64,000 nucleotides of DNA from IMG/VR virus record IMGVR_UViG_3300037067_004637. One strand, written 5' to 3'. The position numbers and the translations under genes were made by a program. The number at the start of each line of letters is the position of its first letter. Position 1 is the stretch's first letter. Of this stretch, positions 6,132 through 55,318 are shown in pieces. The notes under the pieces are model-generated. The model searched no databases, was not told the origin of the DNA, and was given only the letters and a program-made list of their open reading frames with translations. The DNA comes from an uncultured virus (IMG/VR IMGVR_UViG_3300037067_004637). Taxonomy: Duplodnaviria > Heunggongvirae > Uroviricota > Caudoviricetes.

Positions 6132-6629
6132 TTAATCATTTAAAAAAATATCTTCAATTTTTTTCTGCCTTACTGATTTATTATTTATTGTTTGTAATAT
6201 AGCTTTAATTATAATTATTGTTTCATTTTTTAAATCCTTTTTTTTATTTAAAATTTTATTATAAATTTCAATATTTTTATTTTTCATTTTAATAAATATT
6301 TTTAATGATTTTTTACTTTGTAAATATTTATTAATATAAACATCAGGTATATCTACTTTTTTTGCACATTTCATAATATATCTTGACAAAAAACCTTTTT
6401 TGCTTGTATTTGGTAAATTAAAAAACATTTTCTCATCTTTTTCATCCAACGGCATTAAATATAATAATTCTGCTAATAAATTTGTATAAAAATTAGAATA
6501 AAATTTAATTATTCTTTCATTTTGCCTAATTGATTTCAATTTGCTAATTTCATCATCATTATTTGAATAATGAGCAAAAAAATTATTTATATTATTTTTC
6601 ATAGTATTAAATATCAAATATTTTTTCAA
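6132..6629 (-). CDS. Hypothetical protein, paralogue of 6607-7128, C-terminal RxxK tag
   Basis: Shares K.G[FY]L.RY[IL].K.AK.V.[IV]P.V.I with its neighbour; ends VRQKKIEDIFLND. Confidence 0.6.
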   Translation of the reverse strand: MKKYLIFNTMKNNINNFFAHYSNNDDEISKLKSIRQNERIIKFYSNFYTNLLAELLYLMPLDEKDEKMFFNLPNTSKKGFLSRYIMKCAKKVDIPDVYINKYLQSKKSLKIFIKMKNKNIEIYNKILNKKKDLKNETIIIIKAILQTINNKSVRQKKIEDIFLND

Positions 6630-7128
6630 TTTTCATCTTTCTTTCATTTGTTTCACTAATTATAGAAAAAATTACACCAAAAACTAATTTCATGTTATGA
6701 ATAAAAATAATTTTATTTTCATAATTTGATGAATAATTTTCATACATTTTTTTAATATTTGAAAAATTATCATTCTGAAAATCTTTTATTATATCATCAT
6801 TAAAATTTTGATATGTTACGAATTTCTTTCTTCTTTTTGTATTACTATCAAAGCAATTTCTAATTAATACTTCTGGAACTTTAACAATTTTTGCAATTTT
6901 CAACAAATATCTAAATAAATATCCAGCTTTATCTTTATCTTTTAATTTTTTAAAAAGTTTATCTTGTTTATCACTAAAAGGAAAATAACAAAACAAAAGA
7001 GCATAATTATTTTTTATACTAAAATCTAACTTTAAATTTAATGAATCAATATAATCTAAATTATGATTATAAATAGCATAAGAAAATTCATTATTATCAA
7101 ATTTTAAAAGATTTTTTTCGTTTTTCAT
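6607..7128 (-). CDS. Hypothetical protein, paralogue of 6132-6629, C-terminal RxxK tag
   Basis: Shared central motif; ends ERKMKIEKIFDI. Confidence 0.6.
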   Translation of the reverse strand: MKNEKNLLKFDNNEFSYAIYNHNLDYIDSLNLKLDFSIKNNYALLFCYFPFSDKQDKLFKKLKDKDKAGYLFRYLLKIAKIVKVPEVLIRNCFDSNTKRRKKFVTYQNFNDDIIKDFQNDNFSNIKKMYENYSSNYENKIIFIHNMKLVFGVIFSIISETNERKMKIEKIFDI

Positions 7129-7146
7129 TTTTTCAATTTTTTAAAA

Positions 7147-7253
7147 GAATTTGAGATGGTTAGGTATTAAACCCTTGTGTATGAAATCCTTTTTATGTGA
7201 CTGATCAGCACCATTTTTATTTATTATATTTAAGATTCAACCATCTCAAATTC
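7147..7253 (-). repeat. 15-bp perfect inverted repeat enclosing 77 nt (leader RNA or small ncRNA)
   Basis: gaatttgagatggtt (7147-7161) / aaccatctcaaattc (7239-7253); TATTTTTG box just upstream on minus strand (7275-7282). Confidence 0.6.
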
Positions 7254-7297
7254 AAAATTTGTAATTTAATTATACAAAAATAATAATAATATTTTTA

Positions 7298-7657
7298 TTA
7301 TCCAATTTTTTTGTTTCTTTTTTTATTACTATTAACTTTTTTACTATTTTCTGTTGGTGGTGTTGGTAATTCGTTTTTTAAATTATCATTTCTTCTAAAT
7401 AATATAGATTCATCAGAAGCTATAAAAGCTATAAATTCAACACCTCTACCATCTTTTGGTTGATTTTGTAAAGCATCTACTAAAGAATCATTTTTAAAAA
7501 CAATTGGGAAACAATCACCAGCAAACTCAGCAATACCATGTGTACGAGAATATTCATCTTCTAAATATTTACCCATACATTTTCCACATTTGCAGGTTTT
7601 TAATTCATAAGTTAAATTAAAAACAGTAGAACATTCTGGACATAATAGAAGTTTCAC
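7298..7657 (-). CDS. Zinc-ribbon hypothetical protein
   Basis: CPEC...CKCGKC. Confidence 0.6.
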   Translation of the reverse strand: MKLLLCPECSTVFNLTYELKTCKCGKCMGKYLEDEYSRTHGIAEFAGDCFPIVFKNDSLVDALQNQPKDGRGVEFIAFIASDESILFRRNDNLKNELPTPPTENSKKVNSNKKRNKKIG

Positions 7658-7732
7658 TTTTTGTAGTATTTTTTATTATATATTAATTTTATAAATAATA
7701 AAATATTTAAAATGATGATTTTATAAAATAAA

Positions 7733-7754
7733 AAGGAGATTATTTAATCTCCTT
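7733..7754. terminator. Intrinsic terminator hairpin
   Basis: aaggagatt-attt-aatctcctt downstream of 7780-8466. Confidence 0.55.
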
Positions 7755-7779
7755 CCTCTATCAATATTTATTTATGTGA

Positions 7780-8466: not shown

Positions 8467-8569
8467 TATTATATTTTTTATTTTTTATTATATATTAAAA
8501 ATTTAAATGATTATTTTATATTGAAACTCATATAAAATTATATATACATTAAAATATAATGTATAAATA

Positions 8570-10253: not shown

Positions 10254-10434
10254 AAAAATATTAATTATTTTTTATTTATTTTTATATATTTAAAAAAAGC
10301 GGTTTTGTTTGAAAAATTTTTAAGGTAATTAAAATCACCAAATAAAGTAATTTAAATCATCATATAAATTAAACACTATATTATAATAATTAGTATTTTT
10401 GATTATATTTTTAATATATAAAAGAAAATATATT

Positions 10435-10800
10435 ATGGAAAAATTCGAAATATATAGAATATTGCATGTGGAAGATGATCAAAATTTTATTGATTTGGTT
10501 AGAATCATGCTTAATAATAAGTTATATGAATTGGATGTAGCTCATGATGGTTCTGAAGCTGTGACAAAAGCTTTCAGGAATAAATATGATTTAATCATAA
10601 TGGATATTATGATGCCTGTCATGGATGGAAAAATAGCATCAAAAACAATAAAAAGTATGTCACCTAATGTACCTATACTCGCTTTAACAGCTTATGATAA
10701 TGTTGATTTAAATGAAGATAAACAATTTGATTATTTATTAAGGAAACCAATAACCAAAAAAATATTAAGAGATAAAATATCTGAAATTTTAGATAAATAA
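10435..10800 (+). CDS. Stand-alone response regulator receiver (CheY-like)
   Basis: ILHVEDD, DLIIMDIMMPVMDG (phospho-Asp), ILALTA, LRKP; ATG at 10435 preferred over the upstream TTG. Confidence 0.9.
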   Translation: MEKFEIYRILHVEDDQNFIDLVRIMLNNKLYELDVAHDGSEAVTKAFRNKYDLIIMDIMMPVMDGKIASKTIKSMSPNVPILALTAYDNVDLNEDKQFDYLLRKPITKKILRDKISEILDK

Positions 10801-11662: not shown

Positions 11663-13190
11663 TCTTCATTTTTTTCTTTAACTTCATTTTGTAATACAAT
11701 CAATAATTTACTTATTCTTTCTAATTTAGAAATATCAGCACCAACTAAATTATTAACTTGTGAAGTTAAATAATCTATATACTGAATAACATCATTTAAT
11801 TTAGTTTTTAATAGAACATTTTCTTTAATAATCAAATCCATTTGATTTTTTAAATTATTAAATTCTTCTACTGATATGTATTCAGATTTGATTATTCTTC
11901 TATTTTTAAATCGTTTCCAAAACATTGTTTTAATTTTTTAAGTCTTTCTTGTTTATTTAAATCACGTAAAAATTTTTCTATACCGTAGTATTTTGATGGA
12001 TGATCATATGAATTAATAGATTTTATAGTTACAAATGAATTATTATTAATTTGATTTATTCTATAAACATTTTTATTTTTCATCTTCAAAAATTTTTTTA
12101 ATTTTTTTAGTTCTTTCTTTTCTTATTTTTTCTTCTTTTGAAACGTGAGATTCAGATACATGTGATGTTAAATATTCAACATAATCTTTTGGTTTTTCAA
12201 GTTGTTCTGCTATATATTCATAATATTCAATATTAATATTCATTTTTCAAAAATTTTTTTAATTTTTTCAGTTCTTTCTTGTCTTATTTTTTCTTCTTTT
12301 GTTGAAAGATTTTCAGATACGTATTTAGCTAAATATTCAGCATAAGAATAATTAACCATTATATTTCCTTTTTTAATATTCATATTTTTAAATCATCTCC
12401 AAAAACACTCTTTTAATTTTTTAAGTCTTTTTATTTTTTTAAGATTTTCAATTTTTATTAAACCAGGTTCTAATAAGATATAAAATTCTATATAAGAAAG
12501 ATATTTATTATTTTTATTAGATAAATATTCTCTATAAATATCTACATCTAAATCACTTTCAAATATAATATTTTTTACTAAATCTTTACTCATTTTTTAT
12601 ATTAAATATTTGTTTGATCTTTTTTGTCTTTCTTCTCTTATTTGATCTTCTTTTGTTTTTAAAAACCTATTAATAACATAAATTTATAGACTTAGCAGAT
12701 AAATTTGAAAAAAATATATCACTCATTATCAAAAATTTTTTTAATTTTTTTCTTTCTATCTTCTCTTATTTGTTCTTCTTTTGTTTTAATATTAATATTT
12801 TGAGATAAATATTCTAATTGTTTTTTATAATATTCAATTTTTATATTAATATAATCTTCTGAATAATCAGAATAATCTTTTTTATTATCCAAATATTCTT
12901 TTTTTTCACTTAAAGAAGAATCTTTAATAATATATTTAATATAATCTTCAAATTTCATTTTTTAAAAATAATAATTTTTATTCTTCTTTATCAAAAATTT
13001 CATTTAATTTATTTATTTTTATTGTTTTTGATTTTCTAACTTCTTCATACAAAAGATTCATTTTCTTTGCTATATCTTCTACATAATTAACTAAATCATA
13101 ATAATCTATTTTAGATACATAATGTGTATTAACATATTCATAAGCATCTTCTGTTGGTAAATAATCTAAATTATTATTATCTTCATTCAT
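11659..13190 (-). CDS. Cluster of about 8 overlapping small coiled-coil ORFs (11659-11925, 11892-12089, 12073-12243, 12240-12383, 12393-12593, 12719-12958, 12978-13190, plus a remnant near 12600-12700)
   Basis: Shared Y.EYL[AS] and KTKEE[KQ]IR.[ED]R.KK[IL]KKIF motifs; 12073-12243 and 12240-12383 were translated by hand (below the ORF-track cutoff). Confidence 0.6.
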
Positions 13191-15403: not shown

Positions 15404-15787
15404 TTATTTAATATTTTCTAATTTTATTCTTCTTAATATTTTATTTACATCAATGTTTTTAAAATTATAACATTTAAATGTATCACCAATAGATAGTATA
15501 TTATTCAAAAAAACATCACCTTTAATATAATAATCACCAAAATGTTCACAAGTACAATTATTATAATTATCACCTATATGTAGTTTAGGTATATCACATA
15601 TTGTAACACCAGATATAAATAATTTTCCTTCTATTATAAGATTACCATTTATTTTATCTAAATCAATATTTTTTGATATATTTGATACTTCATAAACAGA
15701 TTTTTTTGTACAATAAATATCATCACTTATATAAACATTTTTAGATATATAAAGAGTATCTTTTTTAAAAAAATATATTTCTGACAT
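15404..15787 (-). CDS. Hypothetical protein with C-terminal RxxK tag
   Basis: Ends LRRIKLENIK. Confidence 0.5.
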   Translation of the reverse strand: MSEIYFFKKDTLYISKNVYISDDIYCTKKSVYEVSNISKNIDLDKINGNLIIEGKLFISGVTICDIPKLHIGDNYNNCTCEHFGDYYIKGDVFLNNILSIGDTFKCYNFKNIDVNKILRRIKLENIK

Positions 15788-16379: not shown

Positions 16380-18713
16380 TTATTTTATTATAGATTTATA
16401 AAAATCTATTCTTTTCTTATTTACTACATCAATACTATAATTATCACGAACATATTCATATAAATTTTCACCATAATCTTTAATAGCATTTGGATTATCA
16501 ACAAACCATTTCATTTTATTATACCAACCCATTTTATCATCTTCATTTATAAGAAAACCTTTTGGTTTATTATCATTTTTTCCTTCGATATCATCTATGG
16601 TATATGGACCAAAATTACTTGCAATAATTGGACAATGATGAGCACCAGCTTCGACAACTTTTAATTGTGAATTATGATTAATTATGCCATTAGCATTATA
16701 ACTATGAACATCTTCTATTTCTATATCATAAACATCATTTTTTAGAAATTGTATTTTATCAACATAATCATACATATTTTGTTTATGTTCATTATTACTA
16801 TGTTTATTTTCTGTCAATTTTTGCAACTTTTCAGTTTTTTTTCTTGAAATAAAACCTATTTCTTTATGAAAAATTTCTGAACCTATTCTTCTTAAATCTA
16901 AAGAATAATAATATCTTCTATAATGTTTGTTAAACTTATAATAAATTGTGCTTTGTATGTTAAATGGTAATAATAATATCTGTACTTGTTCTACTAATTT
17001 TAAATCTTTACTTGTAAAAGTAACACAAGAATTTTCACCAACAGTAGCATCAGCTTCAAATAATCCTTTTAAAAATTCTTTAATTACATTTTTTGGTGAT
17101 TTTAATATAACATCTGGAATTCTAAATACTTTACCTTTATTATTAATCCAATTATATTTTTTTGCAATATTTACAAAAGTTTTTGAAGTTAACTTAACAT
17201 CTACACCAAAACCATATTTAACTAAAGAAGTTTTACACCTCTTATCTGCTATTTTTCTGCATTTATTTGGTTTTAAACCAATAGATTCAAATAAAGAAAA
17301 AACATCATCTACAACATCATCATCTCTAATATCACAAGATATAGAAACATTACCGATTTCTCCCATATGACCATCACCTAATAAATATCCTAATAATCTA
17401 CCCCATCTTTCATTTATTTCTATTTTTGGTAACATTGTTTCATCGGATTTTTCTAATTTTTCTTCATTATTTTTTGTAAGCAACATTGGATATGTTATAG
17501 TTTGATAATCATTTTGATTTATGTCTGGTGTTGTCAATTGAATCTTATCACCAATTTTTAAATCTTTTAAATAAACCCATTCATTATCAATTAAAATTCT
17601 ATGAGTTAAAGTTCCCTCTATATTATAACCATCTTTTGTTGTTATTTTAATTGTGTCTTCATTTTCATATTTAAAATAATTTATAATATTATAATATTTA
17701 TTATAAATTTTTACTTTAGCATTTATTTTATTATTAACAATATCTTCTATTTTAATAAATCCTTTATTTGTAGATATTAATGAATCACCTGTAATACATT
17801 TAACTTGATTAAACAATAAACCACTTTTCAATGGTGCTAATGCAACATCACATTCATTATATTGAGTTCCATACAGTAATATTGGCTTGGTAAAACGCCT
17901 CTGGTAGAATTCGTTTATAAATTTAGGATTAATACCATAGGTATCTTTTCCACCATCTTCATATTTCTGTAACCATTGACGATAATCATTATTAGTGATA
18001 TATTTATAATTATTAGTAAAAATATCTTCAAAAAATGTCCAAGGACTGTTTCTCCAATCAGATTTAGCAACACCTTCATTAGTTTTCATTCTTAAATCAA
18101 AACCACAAAGATATAATTGTGCTTTTTGTAAAAAATCTTTATCAAAAGAACCAAAAGATTCTTTTAAAAGTCTTAAATCTGGCATATGTGATATACCACC
18201 ACCCCACAAAAATCTTATCTTATCAGATTTTACTTTTTTATCAAGCCACTGGTGTTCCTTTAAATTAACTGCATTCGGTAGTACAATAACATTTTCATTA
18301 ACTTCTTTAATATCTTTTTCAAAAATTGGTGATGTTGTTGTTATGTAATCAGCTTTTTTTAATTCATCAACAGTTTGTGTAGCACCATTATTATGTTTCC
18401 AATTTCTATAATTTAGATGTGAATCATTTAATCTCCAATGGTCATCTATATCATAAACTCTTTTTATATTATATTTTTTAATAATAGAATCAAAAATATT
18501 TTCAGATTTTTCATCTTTAAAAGCTATTTTTTTATTATAAACTACTATTTGAAAATTTCTAAGATATTCTTCATGTAGAATTGGTAATGTGTGGTCAAAC
18601 ATAGAACGTAATTCAATATGAATATCAGGATCGTTTATTGCAATATGAGAATTAAGAATTCTCCAGTAACCCACGCCATCATTGTCGATATTTAACACTA
18701 AAATATTTATCAT
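16380..18713 (-). CDS. GT-B glycosyltransferase containing an intein
   Basis: GVGYWRI, YDIDD.W, W.GG.SH..DL, DVALAPL, K|SQLKVVEAG motif split by the intein. Confidence 0.85.
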   Translation of the reverse strand: MINILVLNIDNDGVGYWRILNSHIAINDPDIHIELRSMFDHTLPILHEEYLRNFQIVVYNKKIAFKDEKSENIFDSIIKKYNIKRVYDIDDHWRLNDSHLNYRNWKHNNGATQTVDELKKADYITTTSPIFEKDIKEVNENVIVLPNAVNLKEHQWLDKKVKSDKIRFLWGGGISHMPDLRLLKESFGSFDKDFLQKAQLYLCGFDLRMKTNEGVAKSDWRNSPWTFFEDIFTNNYKYITNNDYRQWLQKYEDGGKDTYGINPKFINEFYQRRFTKPILLYGTQYNECDVALAPLKSGLLFNQVKCITGDSLISTNKGFIKIEDIVNNKINAKVKIYNKYYNIINYFKYENEDTIKITTKDGYNIEGTLTHRILIDNEWVYLKDLKIGDKIQLTTPDINQNDYQTITYPMLLTKNNEEKLEKSDETMLPKIEINERWGRLLGYLLGDGHMGEIGNVSISCDIRDDDVVDDVFSLFESIGLKPNKCRKIADKRCKTSLVKYGFGVDVKLTSKTFVNIAKKYNWINNKGKVFRIPDVILKSPKNVIKEFLKGLFEADATVGENSCVTFTSKDLKLVEQVQILLLPFNIQSTIYYKFNKHYRRYYYSLDLRRIGSEIFHKEIGFISRKKTEKLQKLTENKHSNNEHKQNMYDYVDKIQFLKNDVYDIEIEDVHSYNANGIINHNSQLKVVEAGAHHCPIIASNFGPYTIDDIEGKNDNKPKGFLINEDDKMGWYNKMKWFVDNPNAIKDYGENLYEYVRDNYSIDVVNKKRIDFYKSIIK
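16671..17798 (-). mobile_element. Intein (376 aa) with LAGLIDADG homing endonuclease
   Basis: Begins CITGDSLI, block B T.THR, LLGYLLGDG and FLKGLFEADA, ends VYDIEIEDVHSYNANGIINHN followed by Ser+1. Confidence 0.93.
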
Positions 18714-22533: not shown

Positions 22534-22536
22534 AAT

Positions 22537-30250: not shown

Positions 30251-30498
30251 TGAACCTTTTTGAAATTAAAAAAAGAATAGAACCATTGGGGTTTAAATAT
30301 GAACTTGGTAGTTCTTTTGTTTTTATACATAAAGATTTTAAAATGATATTATATCATCTTAATTTTAAAATAGAATTATGGAAAACAATAGAAGTTGGAC
30401 ATTTAAGAAAAATTTACTTTGGTTATTCTTTTGAAGATTGTTTAATTTTAATTCAAAAAGAAATTAAGATTTTAAAATTAAAAAATATTAATGAATAA
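30250..30498 (+). CDS. Hypothetical protein, C-terminal tag variant
   Basis: Ends EIKILKLKNINE. Confidence 0.5.
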   Translation: MNLFEIKKRIEPLGFKYELGSSFVFIHKDFKMILYHLNFKIELWKTIEVGHLRKIYFGYSFEDCLILIQKEIKILKLKNINE

Positions 30499-30763
30499 AG
30501 AGGATTTTATAGATTTTTTATTAAAAAATAATTTTATAAAACAAAATTCTAATATGATATTTTTAGGTCATATTGGTGAATATTTAATATCTGCTGATTT
30601 TTATGTATATGTTAAAAATACTGTTAACATAAGAACAAAAATTTTTAATTTTAAAACAAATACAATTGATATTGTAGATATTAATAATAAAAGTTATGAT
30701 TTTGCAAAGAATTATATAAACAAGTTAAGTAGAAAAACAAAGATTTCTAAAATATTCAAATAA
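30491..30763 (+). CDS. Hypothetical protein, C-terminal RxxK tag
   Basis: Ends SRKTKISKIFK. Confidence 0.5.
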   Translation: MNKEDFIDFLLKNNFIKQNSNMIFLGHIGEYLISADFYVYVKNTVNIRTKIFNFKTNTIDIVDINNKSYDFAKNYINKLSRKTKISKIFK

Positions 30764-36212: not shown

Positions 36213-36383
36213 TTAATTTTCATTATTTTTTTCATCTTTTAAAATTCTATTAATTTTCTTTTTTCTTTCTTCTCTTTTTTGCTTTTTATTAAAAGATATC
36301 ATCATAGGAGTTTTTTCAAAATCTTCAAACACTTTTAATATATCATAAAAAGGATGATTAATATTATATTGTAATGATTTCAT
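36213..36383 (-). CDS. Small protein with C-terminal RxxK tag (56 aa)
   Basis: Manual translation ending KREERKKKINRILKDEKNNEN. Confidence 0.5.
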   Translation of the reverse strand: MKSLQYNINHPFYDILKVFEDFEKTPMMISFNKKQKREERKKKINRILKDEKNNEN

Positions 36384-36555
36384 TTATTTTTCTAAGTCTA
36401 CTAATTTTTTTATCTATTTCATAGATTTCTTTATAAGTATCAAAAATTTTAAAATTTGGTTTAGATGAAAATCCATAATAAGAATTAACTAAAATCTTTA
36501 ATTGTTTTCTTTTAAATAAAAGATTTTGTATTTTATTTTGAACATCATTATCCAT
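36364..36555 (-). CDS. Small protein resembling a family B polymerase motif-B helix, with RxxK tag
   Basis: KQLKILVNSYYG; ends SRLRKINEIITI. Confidence 0.5.
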   Translation of the reverse strand: MDNDVQNKIQNLLFKRKQLKILVNSYYGFSSKPNFKIFDTYKEIYEIDKKISRLRKINEIITI

Positions 36556-37822: not shown

Positions 37823-38062
37823 TTATTTTAATATTTTTTCAAGTTTTTTTATTCTATTTCGTGTTGATTTATTACAAAAAGGACAATCTATTAATAATTC
37901 TCTCATTGTGTATATCTCACATTCTAAATCTCCATCATATTTTTGTGATATATTACCATTTCTTTTAGTTAATATTTTTAATGTGTTATATAAATATATT
38001 TGTCCTTCACAACAAAATTTCCCATTTTCACAATCACGAAAAACATCTCTGTTTCTTCTCAT
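37823..38062 (-). CDS. Cys-rich small protein, C-terminal RxxK tag
   Basis: C...FCCEG...CPFC; ends NRIKKLEKILK. Confidence 0.55.
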   Translation of the reverse strand: MRRNRDVFRDCENGKFCCEGQIYLYNTLKILTKRNGNISQKYDGDLECEIYTMRELLIDCPFCNKSTRNRIKKLEKILK

Positions 38063-40243: not shown

Positions 40244-40945
40244 TTAAAATATCAATTTAACAGTAATATTTTTTGGTGAAATATTATCCATAGTATAAAA
40301 ACCATTTTCTGATAAATTTAAATCTTTATATAAATTTATATTTAATTCATCAATATTTATTTCTAATATTACTATTTTTTCATTAATGTTTTCTGATTTT
40401 AAATAATTTCCAAATTTTAAAACTAATTCATAATTATCAGAAAAATATATTCTATCTGGATGTTTTGATAATTTATTATAAGATTTAGGTATTAAACCAT
40501 ATTGTAAAATTCTTTTAACATTCTTATTTAATGTAGCATGATATAATACTTTTGGTAATGGTATTATTTTGATATCATATTTTGGTTCTAAAAACAAAAC
40601 AATTGGTTGACTGTTATTATTAAAATCTGTAATCCATTCATCACCATTTAATGTAATTTTTGATATAAAATAACCCAAATTATTAATTAATGGTATATAA
40701 TTATCTAATGTTTTAAATCTACCTTCTAAATAAATTTCACCATCTTCTTCAACATTTCCATTTAATTCTGGAAATCTTTTTAATAATATTTTTAATGATA
40801 ATGAACTTGGTTGTGTTTTAATTAAACCTTCTACAATATTTTGAGATTTAAATTCAGTATAAATTTTAATATCATCACCCATATCTAAATTAGATATATT
40901 TTCAATATATTGTTTATACTCTAATATAAAGTTTAATTTCCTCAT
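40244..40945 (-). CDS. ADP-ribosyltransferase/Tpt1-KptA-like protein, paralogue of 60827-61519
   Basis: EGLIKT...LYHAT...I...GL.PK...HPDRIYF...LY.D.N...GFYT.DNISPKNI. Confidence 0.65.
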   Translation of the reverse strand: MRKLNFILEYKQYIENISNLDMGDDIKIYTEFKSQNIVEGLIKTQPSSLSLKILLKRFPELNGNVEEDGEIYLEGRFKTLDNYIPLINNLGYFISKITLNGDEWITDFNNNSQPIVLFLEPKYDIKIIPLPKVLYHATLNKNVKRILQYGLIPKSYNKLSKHPDRIYFSDNYELVLKFGNYLKSENINEKIVILEINIDELNINLYKDLNLSENGFYTMDNISPKNITVKLIF

Positions 40946-41807: not shown

Positions 41808-42191
41808 TTATATTTGAAAATAAAAAATTTTATTTAACTTTTTTCTCCTTACATTTTTTTTTAAATTTTCAAAATATTTATTAATTGATTCAATATCATC
41901 ACTTATTCTAATATAATCACCATAATATTTATGTTCCCAATAAATAGAACCATCATATTTTTCATTATATAAAAATTTATGGTCAATTCCCATTTTTCTA
42001 TTCCAAGTTTGACCATCATTCAACATGAAAATAATTTTTTCATCATTTTTTAATTCTGAAACAATATCTTTTAAACTACATCCTTCTTTATTTATAGGAA
42101 TATTTAATTTATTCATAGCGTTATAATCAAAACCATAATTAAAATTTAATCCAAGACTTTTAATTTCATTTATTGCTTTTTCTGTGTTCAT
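41808..42191 (-). CDS. Hypothetical protein, C-terminal RxxK tag
   Basis: Ends VRRKKLNKIFYFQI. Confidence 0.55.
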   Translation of the reverse strand: MNTEKAINEIKSLGLNFNYGFDYNAMNKLNIPINKEGCSLKDIVSELKNDEKIIFMLNDGQTWNRKMGIDHKFLYNEKYDGSIYWEHKYYGDYIRISDDIESINKYFENLKKNVRRKKLNKIFYFQI

Positions 42192-45882: not shown

Positions 45883-46122
45883 TTAAATATCATTTTCAAA
45901 AATTTTATTTAATTTATTTTTTCTATATTCATTTAAAGAAACAAATCTATATGCAAAATAATATATATCATTTTCTTTTTTTATTTTAATAAAAAATTCG
46001 TTATCTTCAATTCTTGTATCACTTACAATATATTTTTTTCCAATTTTAATATCTAAAATTGAATTTTCTAAAAAATTATTAACACAAACAACTGTTTCTC
46101 CAATTCTAAATTTATTATTCAT
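45883..46122 (-). CDS. KOW/SH3-like mini-protein family member
   Basis: KFRIGETVVC...RFVSLNEYRKNKLNKIF, same family as 52172-55276. Confidence 0.65.
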   Translation of the reverse strand: MNNKFRIGETVVCVNNFLENSILDIKIGKKYIVSDTRIEDNEFFIKIKKENDIYYFAYRFVSLNEYRKNKLNKIFENDI

Positions 46123-46161: not shown

Positions 46162-47199
46162 TTAATCATTTGAATCATCAAGAATATCATTGATTTTTTT
46201 CTTTCTATTATAGGTCAATATACGTTTTTTTAAATGAATAAAATCTTTTCTATATTCTTCATTTTTTATATCTTTTTCATCCATTTGTAAAATAATATCT
46301 TTTATTTTATCAATTTTCTCAATACTTATATCTTTATTAATCATCATTTTTATTTAATTATATCTATTATTTTACACTTTCTAATAATATTATTAAGAAT
46401 ATTTAATTCCATTTTTTCAACATTACTTATTTTTTCTTTCGATTTTAATTCTTTAATTCTATTATTATAATATTCAATATGATTAATTACGTGGTCTTCA
46501 TACATACTAATAGTTAATTTATCTATTTTGAAATTATCTTCTTTATTCATTTTCTATATTTAATTTATCAAGTTTAATCTCTCTTAATTTAGATATATTT
46601 CCGCTATAATTTAAAACTTTAACATCATTATCCCATTTTTCAATTAAAAGAGGATAAAAATTATTTTCTATAATATCTATATTAAATATACTGTTACATT
46701 TAGAAATTATTTTATATTTTTCATTAAAAAATATTTTATCATAATTATCATCTGTTGCTATATCATATTTCACTTGTGCATAATCTTTTTTATTGTGGAG
46801 AATCATATTTCTATAACTAACTCTATATAATATATTATTTTCAAAATATGGATTAAATATAATATAATCCGATGAAAAGCAATATCTGATATTAATTAAA
46901 TGTTTTTGCTGTGTGATATTAGGTAATATATTTTTTAAAAAATTTAAAACATTTATTTTTTTAACACCATTTATTTTAATATAAACAAAATCATCATCTT
47001 TTATATTATCAAAATATATTATATCTTTATTGAAATTATAATCACTTAGTATATCAATTAAATCTTTATATTTTATACACTCATATGATTTCATTTTATA
47101 ACTTCTTATTATTATATCAAGAGCTTCATGACTTCTTTTAATATGAAATGGTGTATAAATAACAAAACTTAATATTATATTATTATGTGATAATATCAT
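46162..47199 (-). CDS. Three hypothetical ORFs (46162-46347, 46350-46550, 46543-47199), each with a C-terminal RxxK tag
   Basis: End NRKKKINDIL, IRKCKIIDII and LREIKLDKL. Confidence 0.5.
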
Positions 47200-47204: not shown

Positions 47205-48040
47205 TTAATTAATTTTTAAAAGTTTATATTTTCTGGTTTCTTTTTTCATTTGTTTTTCGTAAAATTTTCTAATTATATTACTATTATTAAATATATTATC
47301 TAAATTTTTTTCAACTCTTTTATCTTTTAAAAAAATTTTTGCTAATTCAAAATATCTATTTTTAATACAATCTTGTATGATTGATATACAATCTTCTTCA
47401 AATAATTCATCTAAAAAATCTCCTTCTAATATTAAATCAATAAAATCTTTTTTATTATGTGTTGTAATTAAATATAATAGGTGTCTTATATAAAATAAAC
47501 TATAATCTTGTTTTTTTAATTGATTAAAATTGTTTTTAAATAAAACAAAATCCCCTATTTCAACACACGTACATAAATTTCCAAATATTTGATTAGCTGT
47601 TGACATTTTTAAAGTTTAAAAATTTTATTTATCTTTTTTTCTCTTATTTCTTTTAAAAAATGTTTTTTATAATATGATTTTAATCTCTCAATATTTAAAT
47701 GATTAAAATTATTTAAGTTTTTTTCAAATCTATTATCTATTACTAACAATGATAGTATATCAACTCTTTTACTATTTTTTAAAAATTCTATAATAGTATC
47801 AACGCAAATTAATAAATAATCAACATCTTTAAAATATATATTCGATATTTCATTATTTAATAGATATTTCATCATATCTAATCTTTCAAAAAGTATAATA
47901 TTATTAACTAATAACGAAATATCACTATTTAATAAATTAGATTTATTACTTTTTAATTCTAAAATATTATATTCAAATTCAGGAATATCATTTGATACTA
48001 TAGAATCAACAGCTTTAACAATTAAATAATCTTTTTCCAT
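47205..48040 (-). CDS. Two helical-repeat (degenerate ankyrin-like) paralogues, 47205-47606 and 47609-48040
   Basis: Shared D.R.EKNL.N; end TRKYKLLKIN and IREKKINKIFKL. Confidence 0.55.
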
Positions 48041-49832: not shown

Positions 49833-51008
49833 ATGTTGATTAAGAAAATATCTGAATATGATTTTGATAAAATCAATGAAGTTTTAATACATCCAGATTT
49901 TTCTACTGTTACAGAAGATGGTAATTATATTATTATAGCTTTACAAAAATATGTTTATTTTTGTGAATATGATAATGATGAAATTATGCAAAAAATTGCA
50001 AAAATCATTAATGATACATTAAACGTTAAATTTAAATTAGATGTAGATGGTAGTTTTTTAGATATTTTACAAGAAATTAAAGATTATTTACCTAACTGTT
50101 TAGTTTTTGAATATGATATGAATAATTCTGATACATTAAAAATTAATATTGATAATGAGTTTAATCAAGATGTAAATTCATCTAAATATTTTATAGATGT
50201 TCTTAAATTTTTAAAACAAGTTTTAAATGTAAATTTATTAATTTCAGTTGAAGCTATAAATAATATTACAAATTATGAATTAGATATGTTAGAAAATCAT
50301 TATTCAATTGATATCTTAATTGAAAATTGGGAAAAAGATATTAAATATAGAAAATTAACTAATTATGTATATCATGGAACATCTATGGAATATCTTGAAA
50401 ATATTTTAAAAATTGGTTTAAGACCTAATTTTTCACCTTCAAATTTTAAATTTACACAACATAAAAATAGAATTTTTTTAACAAGTGATAAAACAAGTGC
50501 TATGTACTATGCTAATAATACGGCTACCATGACAAAAACACCACCAATTATATTAGAAATAGAAACATCAGGTATAGACCAAGCAAAAATTGATTTTGAT
50601 TTTGATTTCTATATTAATTATATTGATGCCAAACATAATTTTTTCAAAGATGATAAAACTAATTATAATCCAAAAACATTAGCACATCTAAAAAATAAAT
50701 ATATAGGTTCAACTTATAGAAAATTTAGTTACATGGGTTCTATAAATCCAAAATATATAGAGAAAATATATTATAATTTTGATCAAAATACTTATGATTT
50801 TTATAATGTAATAGATAAAGAAAATTTTAAAGATTTTTTAAATATGTATAATGATTTAATTGATAATGGTGTTGAATTAACACATTTAAATTATAAATTT
50901 GATAAAGTATATTATAATGATTTATTACATAATAATGAATTAGAAGAAGTACAAGAAAATAAAAAAATTTTATTATTTGAAGATTATGCAAAAAAGTGGA
51001 ATAAATAG
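49833..51008 (+). CDS. Protein with C-terminal ADP-ribosyltransferase-like domain and CTS-like leader
   Basis: VYHGTS...L.NIL..GLRP, IFLTS, A..YA, ILEI, Y.G.I.PKYI; leader MLIKKISEY...INE. Confidence 0.65.
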   Translation: MLIKKISEYDFDKINEVLIHPDFSTVTEDGNYIIIALQKYVYFCEYDNDEIMQKIAKIINDTLNVKFKLDVDGSFLDILQEIKDYLPNCLVFEYDMNNSDTLKINIDNEFNQDVNSSKYFIDVLKFLKQVLNVNLLISVEAINNITNYELDMLENHYSIDILIENWEKDIKYRKLTNYVYHGTSMEYLENILKIGLRPNFSPSNFKFTQHKNRIFLTSDKTSAMYYANNTATMTKTPPIILEIETSGIDQAKIDFDFDFYINYIDAKHNFFKDDKTNYNPKTLAHLKNKYIGSTYRKFSYMGSINPKYIEKIYYNFDQNTYDFYNVIDKENFKDFLNMYNDLIDNGVELTHLNYKFDKVYYNDLLHNNELEEVQENKKILLFEDYAKKWNK

Positions 51009-52147: not shown

Positions 52148-52155
52148 TATATTTG
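52148..52155 (+). promoter_or_regulatory. Bacteroidota primary-sigma -7 box TAnnTTTG (representative site)
   Basis: Also at 19674 and 29460 (+), and 7275, 11147, 24682, 41473 and 41796 (-), each just upstream of a transcription unit. Confidence 0.65.
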
Positions 52156-52599
52156 TTTTTTTTATTATATTATGAGTAAATTAAAAATAGGAGATAAAGT
52201 AATTTGTATGAATAGTTCATATTCTTCATTTATAACTATTAATAAAATTTATATTATAATAGGTTTAAATTATGATAATAATTATATATCAATTAAAAAT
52301 GATTATAATAATAATGTTATATGTAAATCATCAAAATTTATATCTTTAAAAGAATTTAGAAAATTAAAGTTAAATAATAATCTTAAAAATGAGTAAATTT
52401 AAAATAGGAGATAATGTTGTTTGTATAGATAATAGTAATGATATGTTTATAAAAAAATATGAAATTTATACTGTTACAGACATTAATAATGTAAATGTAA
52501 ATTTTATTGAAATTGATAATTATAAAAAATGTCATTATTTTTTCGATAGATTTATTTCATTAAAAGAATATAGAAAACAAAAAATAAATGATATATTTA

Positions 52600-52770
52600 A
52601 TGAAAAAGGGTGATATTGTAATTTGTATTGATAATGGTGGTTTAAATTTATCATTAGGAAAAAATATAAAATTGAAGCGATTAATATATCAAAGGAATTT
52701 TATTATATAAATGGAAATTATTATAGTATAGAAAGATTTATATCATTGAAAGAAGCAAAAAAATATATGA
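52600..52770 (+). pseudogene. Frameshifted KOW-family paralogue
   Basis: MKKGDIVICIDNGGLNLSLG, then a shift at the A6 tract near 52659-52664; the -1 frame continues KYKIEAINISKEFYYINGNYYSIERFISLKEA. Confidence 0.6.
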
Positions 52771-52802
52771 AGAAAAAATATATGAAGAAAAAATATATGA
52801 AG
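52758..52802 (+). repeat. 15-bp tandem repeat x3
   Basis: aaaaaatatatgaag three times (KKYMK). Confidence 0.9.
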
Positions 52803-53442
52803 AAATTTAAAAAAGGAGATAAAATTTATTGTATAGAAGGTAATGACATTAGACCTATACACCCTAAGATAATTACTCATAAAATATATACTTTTATTGA
52901 ATATTTTAGTACAAGTTCAAATTTAATAAAAATTGAAGAATGTGATGAAATAGTAAATTTAAATCGTTTTATATCATTGAAAGAAGCAAGAAAATTGAAA
53001 ATACAAAAAATAAATGAAGAAATTTAAAGTTGGTGATAAAGTAGTTTGTATTAATAATTATGATAATTATTTTTTAAAATTAAATAATATTTATACTATT
53101 ATTAGTAATGATAATGGTATTATGGTTGATACTCATGATAAAATTTATTGTTGGCCTAATAGATTTATACTATTAAAAGAATATAGAAAGCAAAAATTAG
53201 ATAAAATATTTGAAAATGAAAAAATTTAAATTTAATGATAAAGTAGTTTGTATTTTAGAAAATTGTGAAAATTTAACAAAATATAAAATTTATATTGTAG
53301 AATCTGGAAATATTTTTGATAATTTTATAAATATTAGAAATGATATTAATAGTTTATATAAAATTAATGAGAAATTTTTTATATCTTTGAATGAATTTAG
53401 AAAATTTAAATTAAACAAAATTAAAAAAAAATATATAAATTT

Positions 53443-53901
53443 ATGGTTGAAATTTTAAAAATAGAAAAACAAGATATACCAGAAATTTTAGATTTAGCTG
53501 ATGATATATTTAAAGGTCAGTTGGAAGATAATAAATCATATATAATGAGTGCAACTAACTGGAATATTTCTGTTAAATTAGTAAAAGACGATGAAATAAT
53601 AGGATTTTATTTATTTAATAATGTTAATATCATTAAAGATTTACCTAAAAAATATGAAAATTTATTTAATCATAAATTTGGAATAGAAGTCGTAGCATTA
53701 GGTATAAAACCAGAATATAGAGGTAATAAATATGGTCAAATGTTAATTGATTATCCAGTAAAAACTTTTAGTAATTATTTTGATTATTATTGGGGATGGG
53801 TGTTACATACCTTAAATAATTTAAAATATTGGAATAAAAGAACAAATATTATTAGATATTCTAAAGATGAAAGTATAATTTTTTATTTTTTTAATAAATA
53901 A
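53443..53901 (+). CDS. GNAT acetyltransferase
   Basis: IIGFYL, ALGIKPEYRGNKYGQMLI (motif A), N...W. Confidence 0.75.
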   Translation: MVEILKIEKQDIPEILDLADDIFKGQLEDNKSYIMSATNWNISVKLVKDDEIIGFYLFNNVNIIKDLPKKYENLFNHKFGIEVVALGIKPEYRGNKYGQMLIDYPVKTFSNYFDYYWGWVLHTLNNLKYWNKRTNIIRYSKDESIIFYFFNK

Positions 53902-54632
53902 ATGAATAATTTTAAAATTGGTGATAAAGTAGTATTTATTAATAATAATGCAACATTAATAAATTTAATATCTATTACTATTGATTTTAATCTAATATTA
54001 GGTAAAACTTACACCGTTACAGATATATTATTTAATAAAATTGATGTTAATAATAGAAGGTATTTTATTTATTCAGAAAGATTTATTTTATTATCAGAAT
54101 ATAGAAAAAGAAAATTAAATAAAATATTTTAAAATGAGTAAATTTAAAGTTGGTGATAAAATTGTTTGTGTTAATAATTTAAGTTTTGAATGTTTTAATT
54201 TAGAATTTATGTTAGAATTATATAATATTTATACTGTTTCATCTATTTTAAAACCTAATTTTTTATTAATTGAAGAAACAAATATTATTTTTAAAGATGA
54301 TAGATTTATATCTTTAAAAGAATTCAGAAAACAAAAATTAAATAAAATATTTGAAAATGAGTAAATTTAAAATAGGTGATAAAATTGTTTGTTTTAATGA
54401 TTCTTTTGGTACATCTAAGAATCAATATTTAGAAAAATATAAAATATATACCGTTAATAAAATTCAACTTAAATTATTATGTGTAGAAGAAATAAAAAAT
54501 GAATATTTTTCTGAAAAAAGATTTATAAGTTTAAAAGATTATAGACTTAGAAAAATAAAAAATATTTTAAAATAATTTTAAAAATTATATATTTGTAAAA
54601 ACTTTAGTAATTTTTTAATATATAATATTAAT

Positions 54633-55037
54633 ATGGAAACTAGATTCATAAAATATATTGACTATAAATATTCTAATAAAATTTTAGAATTTTATAATGA
54701 ACCATTATCTGAACAAGAATTAATAGAAATGGCTAACGCTAGTTATAAAGTAACTGGAATTCCTAATGTTGTATTATGGATAGGCCCAAATCCAAATTCT
54801 CATGGTATGAGAATAAAAGTTAGTAATATTCCAAATAAATTTGATGGTGGTGATTGTTTTACATTAACTATTCCAGATTTTAAAATTGTCGGTGTTATAA
54901 ATAAAAAATTTATAACTAATATTATTCTTAATAAAATAAAAGAATTTGTTGAATTAAATATGGAAAATATAGTTAAATATTCTAATTATGAAATTGAAAC
55001 ATACGATTTTATTAATAATTTGAAAAAAGTTAAATAA
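54633..55037 (+). CDS. Hypothetical protein with leader ending LIE-MA
   Basis: LIEMAN...TG...V.WIG...HG.RIKV; TAATATATA upstream. Confidence 0.6.
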   Translation: METRFIKYIDYKYSNKILEFYNEPLSEQELIEMANASYKVTGIPNVVLWIGPNPNSHGMRIKVSNIPNKFDGGDCFTLTIPDFKIVGVINKKFITNIILNKIKEFVELNMENIVKYSNYEIETYDFINNLKKVK

Positions 55038-55318
55038 AATATTTGAAAATGAAGAAATTTAAAGTTGGTGATAAAGTAGTTTGTATTGATAATTCTTATG
55101 GTGGAAAACCTTATGAACCATATACTGAAAAATATAAAGTATATACTATAAGTAAAGTATCAGTATATTCATATATATTAATGTTAGAAGAAATACCTGA
55201 ACGATTTATTTCAGTAAAAAGATTTATAAGTTTAAAAGAATTTAGACTTAGAAAAATAAATAAATTTTTTAAATAATATTTTTTGCTTAATAATTTGAAA
55301 AAAGTTAAATAATATTTT

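What the first reader, a model, noticed from the sequence alone, without database searches (positions are those of the whole stretch)
6132..55276. About 30 unrelated proteins share a C-terminal R-x-x-K-[LI]-x-x-[IL] tag: a possible phage-wide addressing or degron system
Seen: proteins with unrelated bodies end in the same basic amphipathic motif, e.g. VRQKKIEDIF (6132), ERKMKIEKIF (6607), ERTKKIKKIF (12073), DRKKKIKKIF (12719), LRRIKLENI (15404), SRKTKISKIF (30491), ERKKKINRIL (36213), SRLRKINEII (36364), NRIKKLEKIL (37823), VRRKKLNKIF (41808), NRKKKINDIL (46162), LREIKLDKL (46543), IREKKINKIF (47609) and all KOW-like paralogues. It is absent from core enzymes, virion proteins and the N-leader proteins. 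Several tagged clusters follow host-type TAnnTTTG promoters. Inference: a portable docking helix that sends many accessory proteins to one partner or place (a hub protein, membrane, nucleoid or phage compartment) or to a protease such as the soluble AAA+/M41 enzyme at 32777. I know of no described function for it.
Basis: partly seen in the sequence, partly recalled or inferred. Interest (0 to 1): 0.85.

Follow-up and report, generated by a model that had tools for sequence, protein, structure and literature searches.

The report
Shared C-terminal address tag, huge phage
About a quarter of the genes on this piece of an uncultured huge phage encode small, otherwise unrelated proteins that all end in the same short helix, which looks like an address label read by one still unknown partner.

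Summary
In my ORF call, 24 of 95 window ORFs carry R-x-x-K-[IL]-x-x-[ILF] within 12 residues of the stop, against 3 internal matches; shuffling each last 20 residues gives 0.83 (max 4). Synonymous codons inside the motif follow genome usage, so selection acts on the peptide. The tag is clade-wide: 163 of 1154 and 104 of 986 ORFs in two 640-676 kb IMG/VR relatives, and 112 of 971 in published LR745206.1. The bodies are almost all orphans: 289 tagged proteins fall into 178 BLAST clusters. Orthologues keep the tag while the bodies diverge.

The conserved residues (R1, K4, h5, h8, h9) lie on one helix face. Arg is strongly preferred over Lys. Position 2 is Lys here but Asp in LR745206. This argues for a specific protein reader rather than charge-driven membrane or nucleic-acid binding.

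The window's AAA+/M41 protease has no homologue in the tag-rich relatives, so it is not the general reader. The DNA polymerase tail lacks the tag. LR756501.1 instead uses a different tag, DPYGEExW.

Earlier notes of this scan describe the same kind of tag on other DNA. My four literature searches found no paper describing it.

The parts
6132..6629 (-). tagged ORF, 165 aa; tag RQKKIEDIF + LND at nt 6144-6170
   Evidence: PSSM 20.1; no Pfam/PHROG family
6607..7128 (-). tagged ORF, 173 aa (paralogue of the previous one); tag RKMKIEKIF + DI at nt 6616-6642
   Evidence: PSSM 22.5
11892..12089 (-). near-tag ORF, 65 aa; RLKKLKQCF + GNDLKIEE (position 8 is Cys, so outside the strict pattern)
   Evidence: PSSM 11.0
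12073..12243 (-). tagged ORF, 56 aa; RTKKIKKIF + EDEK at nt 12088-12114
12393..12593 (-). near-tag ORF, 66 aa; RLKKLKECF + WR
   Evidence: PSSM 12.7
12719..12958 (-). tagged ORF, 79 aa; RKKKIKKIF + DNE at nt 12731-12757
15404..15787 (-). tagged ORF, 127 aa; RRIKLENIK at the very end, nt 15407-15433
30491..30763 (+). tagged ORF, 90 aa; RKTKISKIF + K at nt 30731-30757
   Evidence: weak wHTH hint only
36213..36383 (-). tagged ORF, 56 aa; RKKKINRIL + KDEKNNEN at nt 36240-36266
36364..36555 (-). tagged ORF, 63 aa; RLRKINEII + TI at nt 36373-36399
37823..38062 (-). tagged ORF, 79 aa; RIKKLEKIL + K at nt 37829-37855
41808..42191 (-). tagged ORF, 127 aa; RRKKLNKIF + YFQI at nt 41823-41849
45883..46122 (-). 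tagged ORF, 79 aa, SH3-like family; RKNKLNKIF + ENDI at nt 45898-45924
46162..46347 (-). tagged ORF, 61 aa; RKKKINDIL + DDSND at nt 46180-46206
46350..46550 (-). tagged ORF, 66 aa; RKCKIIDII + K at nt 46356-46382
   Evidence: PSSM 7.3
46543..47199 (-). tagged ORF, 218 aa; REIKLDKLN + IENE at nt 46558-46584; tagged orthologue in G001, truncated untagged homologue in G002
47205..47606 (-). tagged ORF, 133 aa; RKYKLLKIN at the very end, nt 47208-47234
47609..48040 (-). tagged ORF, 143 aa; REKKINKIF + KL at nt 47618-47644
52172..52396 (+). near-tag ORF, 74 aa, SH3-like family; RKLKLNNNL + KNE (position 8 is Asn)
   Evidence: PSSM 7.5
52389..52613 (+). tagged ORF, 74 aa, SH3-like family; RKQKINDIF + NEKG at nt 52572-52598
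52746..53027 (+). tagged ORF, 93 aa, SH3-like family; RKLKIQKIN + EEI at nt 52989-53015
53014..53229 (+). tagged ORF, 71 aa, SH3-like family; RKQKLDKIF + ENEKI at nt 53185-53211
53210..53458 (+). tagged ORF, 82 aa, SH3-like family; RKFKLNKIK + 10-residue tail at nt 53399-53425
53902..54132 (+). tagged ORF, 76 aa, SH3-like family; RKRKLNKIF at the very end, nt 54103-54129
54134..54364 (+). tagged ORF, 76 aa, SH3-like family, folded here; RKQKLNKIF + ENE at nt 54326-54352
   Evidence: AF2 mean pLDDT 85.2: beta-barrel, then helix 61-74, which holds the tag (R65, K68); weak SH3 matches
54351..54575 (+). tagged ORF, 74 aa, SH3-like family; RLRKIKNIL + K at nt 54543-54569
55043..55276 (+). tagged ORF, 77 aa, SH3-like family; RLRKINKFF + K at nt 55244-55270
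   Evidence: Pfam Peptidase_M41 48 bits and AAA 29 bits; no homologue in G001, G002 or G003

Best explanation
The motif is a portable C-terminal docking helix, in effect an address tag. It is about two and a half helical turns, R-x-x-K-[I/L]-x-x-[I/L]-[F/L], followed by 0-11 variable residues that are often acidic. It is appended to many unrelated, small, fast-evolving accessory proteins of a clade of huge T4-like phages of Bacteroidota. One face of the helix (Arg1, Lys4, h5, h8, h9) is read by one common protein partner, which is not yet identified, so that all tagged proteins are brought to the same partner or place.

Shown: positional enrichment, peptide-level selection, portability onto unrelated bodies and onto a known domain (Acb3), retention in orthologues, a helical state in one model, and a one-sided conservation pattern.

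Inferred: that the helix docks on a protein, and that there is a single reader. What binding achieves (localisation, loading or turnover) is open.
For: (1) Enrichment. The window has 24 of 95 ORFs tagged against 0.83 in shuffles. G002 has 104 of 986 against 4.2, G001 has 163 of 1154 against 4.8, and LR745206.1 has 112 of 971 with 35 internal matches.

(2) Peptide level. Synonymous codons at Ile and Leu positions follow genome usage, and I and L interchange through first-base changes.

(3) Portability. 289 tagged proteins from the window, G001 and G002 fall into 178 BLAST clusters once tags are removed. G002's 103 fall into 99 families and G001's 162 into 149. 100 of 102 G002 tagged proteins scanned, and 98 of the 100 longest of G001's 163, have no Pfam family above cut-off. 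The exceptions include Acb3 CBASS-inhibitor homologues. In the 240-aa G002 protein the Pfam match covers residues 37-222 and the tag lies beyond it.

(4) Retention. 111 homologue pairs are tagged-tagged and 24 are tagged-'untagged'. About half of the 24 are near-motif variants that just miss the pattern, and most of the others are truncated homologues or short local matches. In 85 G002-G001 orthologue pairs, tag identity is 0.80 against 0.57 for the body, and the free positions score 0.55-0.79. 29 of 31 further metagenomic members of the SH3-like family end in the motif. In a tandem fusion only the last copy keeps it.

(5) Specific reader. Under a relaxed pattern, position 1 is R 91 to K 21 in G002, although K is 3.5 times commoner than R and internal matches give K 296 to R 66. 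In LR745206 it is R 154 to K 24. AGA to AAA is a single change favoured by the AT bias, so Arg is being held by selection. Position 2 is K here but D/E/N in LR745206.

(6) Geometry (inference). On a helical wheel positions 1, 4, 5, 8 and 9 fall within a 140-degree arc, with Arg1 in the middle of the hydrophobic face, and positions 2, 3, 6 and 7 lie outside that arc.

(7) Structure. The AF2 model of window 54134-54361 has the tag in a terminal helix (residues 61-74) appended to an SH3-like barrel.
Against: No partner was found. All phage-encoded candidates I looked at (DnaJ, a MoxR-like AAA plus a VWA protein, a classic AAA of 392 aa, gp32) also have homologues in LR756501.1, which lacks this tag. 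In the only model, the helix has pLDDT of about 92 over residues 61-70. It may therefore pack on its own domain rather than being free; I could not inspect contacts. A common origin of the tags, spread by duplication and recombination, is not excluded, although it would not explain their retention. R1 and K4 identities are forced by the pattern used to pick the pairs. My ORF calls are mechanical and include some spurious ORFs.
Confidence: 0.55

Rival explanations
1. Virion-loading signal. The partner is the prohead scaffold or capsid interior, and the tagged proteins are packed into the head and injected. This would work like the T4 capsid targeting sequence or encapsulin cargo-loading peptides. 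It is a special case of docking.
For: The phage is T4-like. The window has a baseplate wedge and a tail fibre, and G002 has a gp20 portal, a gp23 capsid protein and a T4-type terminase. The review PMC3012670 (passages read) says T-even internal proteins are a diverse set of defence proteins sharing only a conserved CTS. Anti-defence Acb3 homologues carry the tag.
Against: 104-163 different tagged proteins per genome is far more than known internal proteins. A separate N-terminal leader, MK[YH][LI]K.[FY], which resembles a CTS (resemblance recalled), exists on 5, 33 and 23 ORFs in the window, G001 and G002. It almost never co-occurs with the tag: 1 observed against 7.9 expected, p=0.003. Transcription units with tagged genes are enriched for the host-type TAnnTTTG motif and not for TATAAATA, which occurs at 3/60 and 4/73 against 31/377 and 23/328. 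No protease-site motif flanks the tag.
Confidence: 0.13
2. Degron. The tag is recognised by an AAA+ unfoldase or protease, host ClpXP, Lon or FtsH or a phage enzyme, so that accessory proteins are removed on schedule. This is also a special case of docking.
For: The window encodes a soluble AAA+/M41 protein. G002 encodes a classic-clade AAA of 392 aa whose next, overlapping gene is tagged. A basic C-terminal ClpX signal (the MuA type) is recalled from the literature and was not checked here.
Against: The M41 enzyme is absent from G001, G002 and G003. The motif is not at the extreme C-terminus, since 0-11 variable, mostly acidic or polar residues follow it. The AAA-392 family is widespread in phages, and LR756501 has a homologue.
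Confidence: 0.1
3. Sliding-clamp (gp45-like) binding tail. The tag would be a PIP-like motif that tethers accessory proteins to clamps on phage DNA.
For: It is C-terminal with h-x-x-h-h spacing followed by an acidic residue, as in the polymerase tails. G002's polymerase ends ...FSSIFDF. T4 gp43 ends SLDFLFG and gp55 ends SLDFLYEAND.
Against: The polymerase tail lacks Arg1 and Lys4, the two most conserved tag residues. No clamp gene was found with PF09116, PF02916 or phmmer using T4 gp45. The 5'-3' exonuclease has no tag.
Confidence: 0.06
4. Membrane-targeting amphipathic helix of the MinD or FtsA type, or general nucleic-acid binding by a basic tail.
For: In the window the tag is strongly basic and amphipathic, with K at positions 2, 4 and 7.
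Against: Arg is preferred over Lys about 4 to 1 against a 1 to 3.5 background. Position 2 is acidic in LR745206 and position 7 is mostly Glu in G001 and G002, so net charge is not conserved. Arg1 sits in the middle of the hydrophobic face (inference).
Confidence: 0.06
5. Self- or cross-association helix that makes tagged proteins oligomerise or co-assemble with each other.
For: A basic N-terminal half and an acidic tail could pair antiparallel (inference only).
Against: Many tags have no acidic tail: 8 of 24 in the window end at the motif or have a single residue after it. Conserved like charges on the binding face are unusual for self-association.
Confidence: 0.04
6. No function: a by-product of Lys/Ile-rich composition, of the next gene's initiation region, or of a DNA or RNA signal at gene ends.
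For: The genome is 21% GC. Tags are about twice as frequent when a gene follows closely.
Against: Shuffles give 0.83 against 24 observed. Synonymous codons are free. The tag is present without a downstream neighbour. It is kept in orthologues and in genomes of 21-29% GC, and absent from LR756501 (2 against 2.6 expected).
Confidence: 0.01

Closest known systems
Capsid targeting sequence (CTS) of T-even phage internal proteins (IPI-III, Alt)
   Same: A short peptide is the only thing shared by diverse, fast-evolving, partly anti-defence proteins of a T4-type phage, and it addresses them to one place (PMC3012670, passages read).
   Different: The CTS is N-terminal, is removed by the prohead protease, and sits on a handful of proteins (recalled). 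This tag is C-terminal, has no sequence likeness to the CTS, sits on 100-160 proteins per genome, and coexists with, and avoids, a separate N-terminal leader.
Encapsulin cargo-loading peptides and bacterial-microcompartment encapsulation peptides
   Same: Short terminal peptides or amphipathic helices on unrelated cargo proteins that dock on one shell protein (recalled, not read here).
   Different: There is no encapsulin or BMC context. The consensus is different, and the number and nature of the cargoes are different. The destination here is unknown.
PIP-box and T4 gp45-binding tails (gp43, gp55, gp33)
   Same: C-terminal, with h-x-x-h-h spacing and an acidic residue after it. One hub binds many partners.
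   Different: The phage's own polymerase tail (GFFSSIFDF) lacks the invariant Arg and Lys. No clamp was identified.
SspB XB peptide and p97 VIM/VBM motifs (short basic helical peptides that dock on the N-domain of an AAA+ machine)
   Same: A short basic and hydrophobic terminal peptide read by one domain of an unfoldase (recalled; the XB analogy is also made in earlier scan notes e1-6032191 and e1-5754086).
   Different: No binding was shown here. The candidate AAA proteins are not specific to tag-bearing phages.

Membership tests
T4 capsid targeting sequence (CTS) | Located at the N-terminus of the precursor | tested here: not met
   The tag lies within 12 residues of the stop in 24 of 24 window cases, and only 3 internal matches exist.
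T4 capsid targeting sequence (CTS) | Followed by a prohead-protease cleavage site ((L/I)-x-E, recalled) and removed on maturation | tested here: inconclusive
   Position 7 is Glu in 42 of 104 (G002) and 69 of 163 (G001) tags but in only 1 of 24 in the window. No conserved site precedes the tag. Processing cannot be seen from sequence.
T4 capsid targeting sequence (CTS) | Carried by proteins found in the virion | not testable with these tools
   No proteome exists for this uncultured phage.
Encapsulin cargo-loading peptide | C-terminal short peptide on cargo encoded next to an encapsulin shell gene | tested here: not met
   The C-terminal position is met, but tagged genes are scattered over the whole 640 kb genome. 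The only HK97-type protein seen is the phage gp23 homologue.
BMC encapsulation peptide | Amphipathic terminal helix on enzymes of a shell-encoding locus | not tested
   Only G002 proteins of 250 aa or more, and 101 proteins of 185-249 aa, were scanned. Small BMC shell proteins would have been missed.
PIP-box / gp45-binding tail | Shared by the replicative polymerase of the same phage | tested here: not met
   The C-terminal piece of G002's DNA polymerase ends ...KELGFFSSIFDF, without Arg1 or Lys4.
PIP-box / gp45-binding tail | A sliding clamp encoded by the phage | tested here: inconclusive
   PF09116, PF02916 and phmmer with T4 gp45 found nothing significant in G001, G002, G003 or LR756501. 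A clamp loader is present, so a divergent clamp probably exists.
C-terminal degron (ssrA-like, or ClpX C-motif 2, recalled) | Signal at the extreme C-terminus with a free carboxylate | tested here: not met
   0-11 variable residues follow position 9. The commonest tail lengths are 1-4.
MinD/FtsA-type membrane-targeting sequence | Generic basic amphipathic helix in which K and R are interchangeable and net positive charge is kept | tested here: not met
   R 91 to K 21 at position 1 against a K:R background of 3.5. Position 2 is mostly D/E/N in LR745206.

The most novel reading that the evidence does not exclude
Huge phages of this group run proteome-scale, lineage-specific protein-addressing codes. 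More than 10% of the proteome carries a terminal peptide that a dedicated phage- or host-encoded receptor uses to gather accessory proteins into one compartment, assembly or export/injection route in the infected cell. Tag and reader co-evolve: R-x-x-K-h-x-x-h-h here, DPYGEExW in LR756501.1, and a separate N-terminal MKYLK.FE leader. This would be a sorting system analogous to organelle targeting signals, and none has been described in bacteriophages.
Probability: 0.3. Interest if true: 0.9.

Novelty: new variant of a known kind. Interest (0 to 1): 0.75.

Why it matters
If one receptor reads this tag, it gives a single experimental handle on 100-160 otherwise uninterpretable orphan proteins per genome, in the largest known phages. 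A tag-affinity reagent or a receptor knock-out would show where the 'dark' accessory proteome goes and when. It would also show that phages can use proteome-wide sorting signals. So far this is known only on a small scale, from the T4 capsid targeting sequence. The tag itself could serve as a portable delivery label. The sharp preference for Arg1 and Lys4, and the different tag in a sister lineage, make the question directly testable with peptides and mutants.

Tried and rejected
Searches and scans that led nowhere:
- No whole genome is held for the window.
- A 60-base stretch of the window has no exact match in IMG/VR.
These were mostly chance hits in non-coding frames, with only 15 in an open frame close to a stop, so it says nothing about the tag's range.

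Candidate readers:
- Sliding clamp. It was not found.
- A 245-aa protein near the clamp loader, taken as a possible clamp. It has no PDB relatives and only 6 homologues without Pfam, and its consensus looks more like a nucleotidyltransferase, so I dropped it.
The pair is present in G001 and G002 but also in tag-less LR756501. The AAA hit is below Pfam's cut-off and has no PDB relatives.

Phyletic profiling. 29 untagged G002 proteins have homologues in G001 and LR745206 but not in LR756501. One of them is a 373-aa protein directly after an AAA gene and a tagged gene. AF2 (pLDDT 79.9) shows an all-helical protein with long coiled coils and a small C-terminal winged-helix-like domain. Nothing marks it as a peptide reader.

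Structure co-prediction. Two copies of the SH3-like tagged protein gave 'no answer' (score 0.01, mark 0.42), which is no evidence either way.

Promoter counts per gene were uninformative. Only the per-transcription-unit counts showed a weak trend.

Literature. Four full-text searches found no paper describing such a tag: 'huge phages / C-terminal motif / Bacteroidetes'; 'phage / shared C-terminal / unrelated proteins / targeting signal'; 'jumbo phage / C-terminal / amphipathic helix / early proteins / conserved motif'; and 'DPYGEE'. The one promising hit, PMC7550191 (passages read), concerns the RLY/KLY tail of ribosomal protein bS21 and is unrelated.

Full report
**What the window is.** The window is 21% GC and encodes a T4-type phage gene set. 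It has a fused topoisomerase II, thymidylate synthase, dNMP kinase, a helicase, a baseplate wedge protein, a tail fibre with an S74 chaperone domain, GIY-YIG and DUF7487 homing endonucleases, an intein-bearing gene, ankyrin-repeat proteins and a soluble AAA+/M41 protein. Topoisomerase II is most similar to huge uncultured phages:
- 67, 57 and 59% identity to IMG/VR contigs of 676, 640 and 422 kb (handles G001, G002, G003);
- 53% identity to the 735-kb LR756501.1.

G002 has direct terminal repeats and is rated 100% complete. It encodes a PorP/SprF type IX secretion protein, which fits a Bacteroidota host. The window's own contig is not in IMG/VR. The protein collection records a 128-kb contig for one of its proteins.

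**The observation.** I called ORFs mechanically (at least 40 aa, longest first), which gave 95 ORFs.
- R..K[LI]..[IL] occurs 23 times within 12 residues of the stop and 3 times at 17,428 internal positions. Allowing F at position 8 gives 24 ORFs.
- Shuffling each ORF's last 20 residues gives 0.83 +/- 0.91, with a maximum of 4 in 300 shuffles.
- A PSSM trained only on G001 and G002 tags finds 33 of 95 window ORFs above the 99.9th percentile of internal scores. Of these, 27 score 7 or more and 6 are weak. Only 18 of 17,333 internal positions pass the threshold.
- None of the 17 proteins with a Pfam score above the curated cut-off is tagged.

**Peptide or DNA signal.** The codons inside the motif follow genome usage. 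Position 8 is ATT 12, ATA 9, ATC 1, against a genome ratio of 49:48:3. Position 5 mixes TTA 7, CTT 3, ATA 7, ATT 6 and ATC 1. The I/L exchange needs first-base changes, and the x positions vary freely. Among ORFs of at most 260 aa, the tag also occurs on genes without an adjacent downstream gene (7 of 40 in the window, 38 of 413 in G002, 46 of 413 in G001). That is about half the rate of genes with a close neighbour. So neither composition nor overlap with initiation regions explains it.

**Range.**

| Genome | Tagged ORFs | All ORFs | Internal matches |
|---|---|---|---|
| G002 (whole) | 104 | 986 | 32 |
| G001 (whole) | 163 | 1154 | 32 |
| LR745206.1 (published) | 112 | 971 | 35 |
| LR756501.1 | 2 (2.6 expected) | 1051 | 16 |

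A degenerate DNA pattern gives 45, 28 and 14 hits in G001, G002 and G003. It gives 14 in LR745206, 1 in LR756501, and 3-5 in LR756502, LR756504 and Lak-B5, with controls of 0-4.

**What is tagged.**
- With tags removed, 289 tagged proteins form 178 BLAST clusters. G002's 103 fall into 99 families and G001's 162 into 149.
- 100 of 102 tagged G002 proteins scanned, and 98 of the 100 longest of G001's 163, have no Pfam family above cut-off. The exceptions are a D12 methyltransferase, Acb3 CBASS-inhibitor homologues in both genomes, and an ankyrin protein. In the 240-aa Acb3 homologue the Pfam match covers residues 37-222 and the tag follows it, so the tag is an appendage to a known domain.
- Tagged proteins are small (median 79-114 aa).
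- They evolve faster than size-matched untagged ones. Median G002-G001 orthologue identity is 60% against 75%.

**Retention.**
- 91 of 104 G002 tagged ORFs have a G001 reciprocal best hit. In 85 pairs where both are tagged, tag identity is 0.80 against 0.57 for the body. R1 and K4 are fixed by the selection pattern, and the free positions score 0.55-0.79.
- Of 135 homologue pairs, 111 are tagged-tagged. About half of the 24 others are near-variants such as K-M, K-Y or longer tails, and most of the rest are truncated homologues or short local matches.
- In the SH3-like family, R65 and K68 are two of only four invariant columns.
- 29 of 31 further metagenomic members end in the motif. In a tandem fusion only the last copy has it.

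**What kind of reader.**
- Under a relaxed pattern, Arg beats Lys at position 1 by 91 to 21 in G002 and by 154 to 24 in LR745206. Lys is 3.5 and 2.4 times commoner overall in those genomes, and internal matches in G002 give K 296 to R 66.
- AGA to AAA is one transition favoured by the AT bias, so Arg is being held by selection (inference).
- Position 2 is Lys in the window, G001 and G002 but mostly Asp, Glu or Asn in LR745206. Position 7 is Lys in the window but mostly Glu in G001 and G002. Net charge is therefore not what is conserved.
- On a helical wheel, positions 1, 4, 5, 8 and 9 span 140 degrees with Arg in the middle, and the free positions lie outside that arc (inference).
- AF2 puts the tag of window 54134-54361 in a terminal helix (residues 61-74) after a five-stranded SH3-like barrel, with mean pLDDT 85.
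- Together this points to one helix face docking on a specific protein site. It argues against charge-driven membrane or nucleic-acid binding.

**Who reads it.** This is not resolved.
- The window's AAA+/M41 protein has no homologue in G001, G002 or G003, so it cannot be the general reader.
- G002's polymerase ends ...GFFSSIFDF. This resembles the T4 gp43 and gp55 tails (SLDFLFG, SLDFLYEAND) and lacks Arg1 and Lys4. No clamp gene was detected.
- G002 encodes DnaJ, a MoxR-like AAA next to a VWA/DUF2201 protein, a classic AAA of 392 aa whose overlapping downstream gene is tagged, and gp32. All of these also have homologues in tag-less LR756501. The AAA family is common in phages.
- 29 untagged proteins follow the tag's phyletic pattern. 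One, next to that AAA, is a helical coiled-coil protein with a small winged-helix-like end.
- The single complex job, two copies of the SH3-like protein, gave no verdict.

**Timing.** Transcription units with tagged genes have TAnnTTTG within 70 nt upstream about twice as often as other units. The counts are 17/60 vs 62/377 (p=0.03) and 25/73 vs 53/328 (p=0.0009). T4-type TATAAATA is not enriched: 3/60 and 4/73 vs 31/377 and 23/328. This is a weak hint of early expression. It rests on consensus matches in AT-rich DNA.

**Two related signals.**
- LR756501.1 has a different tag, DPYGEExW, with 100 instances in 86 ORFs. Of these, 39 are C-terminal, 17 follow a short N-terminal MIKKFKIFE-type leader, and 44 are internal, often several per protein. 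Its synonymous codons vary but are skewed against genome usage: CCT 66% against 34%, and TAC 73% against 36%.
- The window clade has an N-terminal leader, MK[YH][LI]K.[FY], on 5, 33 and 23 ORFs. In the window it is on the ankyrin proteins at 21032-23157. It almost never co-occurs with the C-tag: 1 observed against 7.9 expected, p=0.003.
- Alternative, lineage-specific terminal labels fit an addressing system.

**Comparison and novelty.** The closest concept is the T-even capsid targeting sequence, where diverse defence proteins share only a targeting peptide (PMC3012670, passages read). The defining features of the CTS (N-terminal position, cleavage, virion residence) are not met or not testable here, and the same holds for the other families I considered. 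Four full-text searches found no description of this tag. Earlier notes of this scan describe the same or similar tags on other DNA. I re-tested the motif, its presence in the ~635-kb relative, and the MoxR lead myself.

**Verdict.** This is a real, strongly selected, portable C-terminal docking tag on more than 10% of the proteome of a huge-phage clade. Its reader and purpose are unknown.

Noticed in passing
LR756501.1 (loci L201-L237), e.g. record 499642-503452 and 552409-555773: The 735-kb relative lacks the window's tag but has another one, DPYGEExW. It has 100 instances in 86 ORFs: 39 C-terminal (usually after [KR]-[IV]-[FV]-[ST]-x-x), 17 just after an N-terminal MIKKFKIFE-type leader, and 44 internal, up to four per protein. 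Codons vary but are skewed against genome usage.
   Followed up: partly
window 21032-22054, 22051-22533, 22537-23157, 31913-32278 (all -): An N-terminal leader, MKY[LI]K.[YF]NE..., sits on three adjacent proteins (two with ankyrin repeats; the third, 22537-23157, has no family hit) and on a fourth ORF. The same leader is on 33 ORFs in G001 and 23 in G002, and almost never on C-tagged proteins (1 against 7.9 expected, p=0.003). It may be the counterpart of the T4 capsid targeting sequence; that resemblance is recalled, not tested.
   Followed up: partly
window, position 2 of the tags: Lys at tag position 2 uses AAG in 5 of 14 cases, against 8% AAG genome-wide. This would break up runs of 11 or more A in AGA-AAA-AAA-AAA. 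It may reflect avoidance of slippery poly-A tracts.
   Followed up: no
window 32777-34708 (-): A soluble FtsH-like protein (AAA, a ClpB-D2-small-like domain and an M41 peptidase) with no membrane-anchor domain among its Pfam matches and no homologue in G001, G002 or G003. There is only a marginal hit in LR756501.
   Followed up: partly
window 16380-18713 (-): A 777-aa ORF with an intein (Intein_splicing plus LAGLIDADG_3) inserted in a protein whose N-terminal part matches a phage glycosyltransferase family. Inteins also sit in G002's ribonucleotide reductase and DNA polymerase.
   Followed up: no
window 38059-38766, 40244-40945, 49833-51008, 60827-61519, 21032-22054: A possible ADP-ribosylation toolkit: a NADAR domain (82 bits), a weak PARP-like match, a weak RNA 2'-phosphotransferase-like match on 40244-40945 (60827-61519 had no family hit and only shares a similar C-terminal sequence), and a weak Arr-like match on an ankyrin protein. 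G002 has an ART-PolyVal protein.
   Followed up: no
window 52172-55276 (+) and 45883-46122 (-): A tandem array of ten small SH3-like paralogues (N-terminus M-x-K-F-K-[IV]-G-D-K-V-V-C), all ending in the tag or a near-tag. The array is interrupted by a GNAT-like ORF (53443-53901) and a 134-aa ORF (54633-55037).
   Followed up: yes
G002: L019:4686-8099 (-), plus at least nine ORFs with TnpB-type domains in G002: A 1138-aa protein with RuvC_III and HNH_4 domains (Cas9-like), and many IS605 OrfB/TnpB genes in the 640-kb relative.
   Followed up: no
G002 368607-371783 (L023:8607-11780, +); LR745206 563415-565953: A conserved gene row: a classic-clade AAA (392 aa), then a variable middle gene (tagged, 286 aa in G002), then a 373-aa helical coiled-coil protein with a winged-helix-like end. 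The last gene is present in the three tag-bearing genomes and not found in LR756501.
   Followed up: partly
window 10399-10800 (+); G002 L005:66-2390 and L018:9386-11653: A stand-alone response-regulator receiver protein in the window, and two PAS/HisKA/HATPase/receiver hybrid histidine kinases in G002. Two-component signalling parts encoded by a phage.
   Followed up: no
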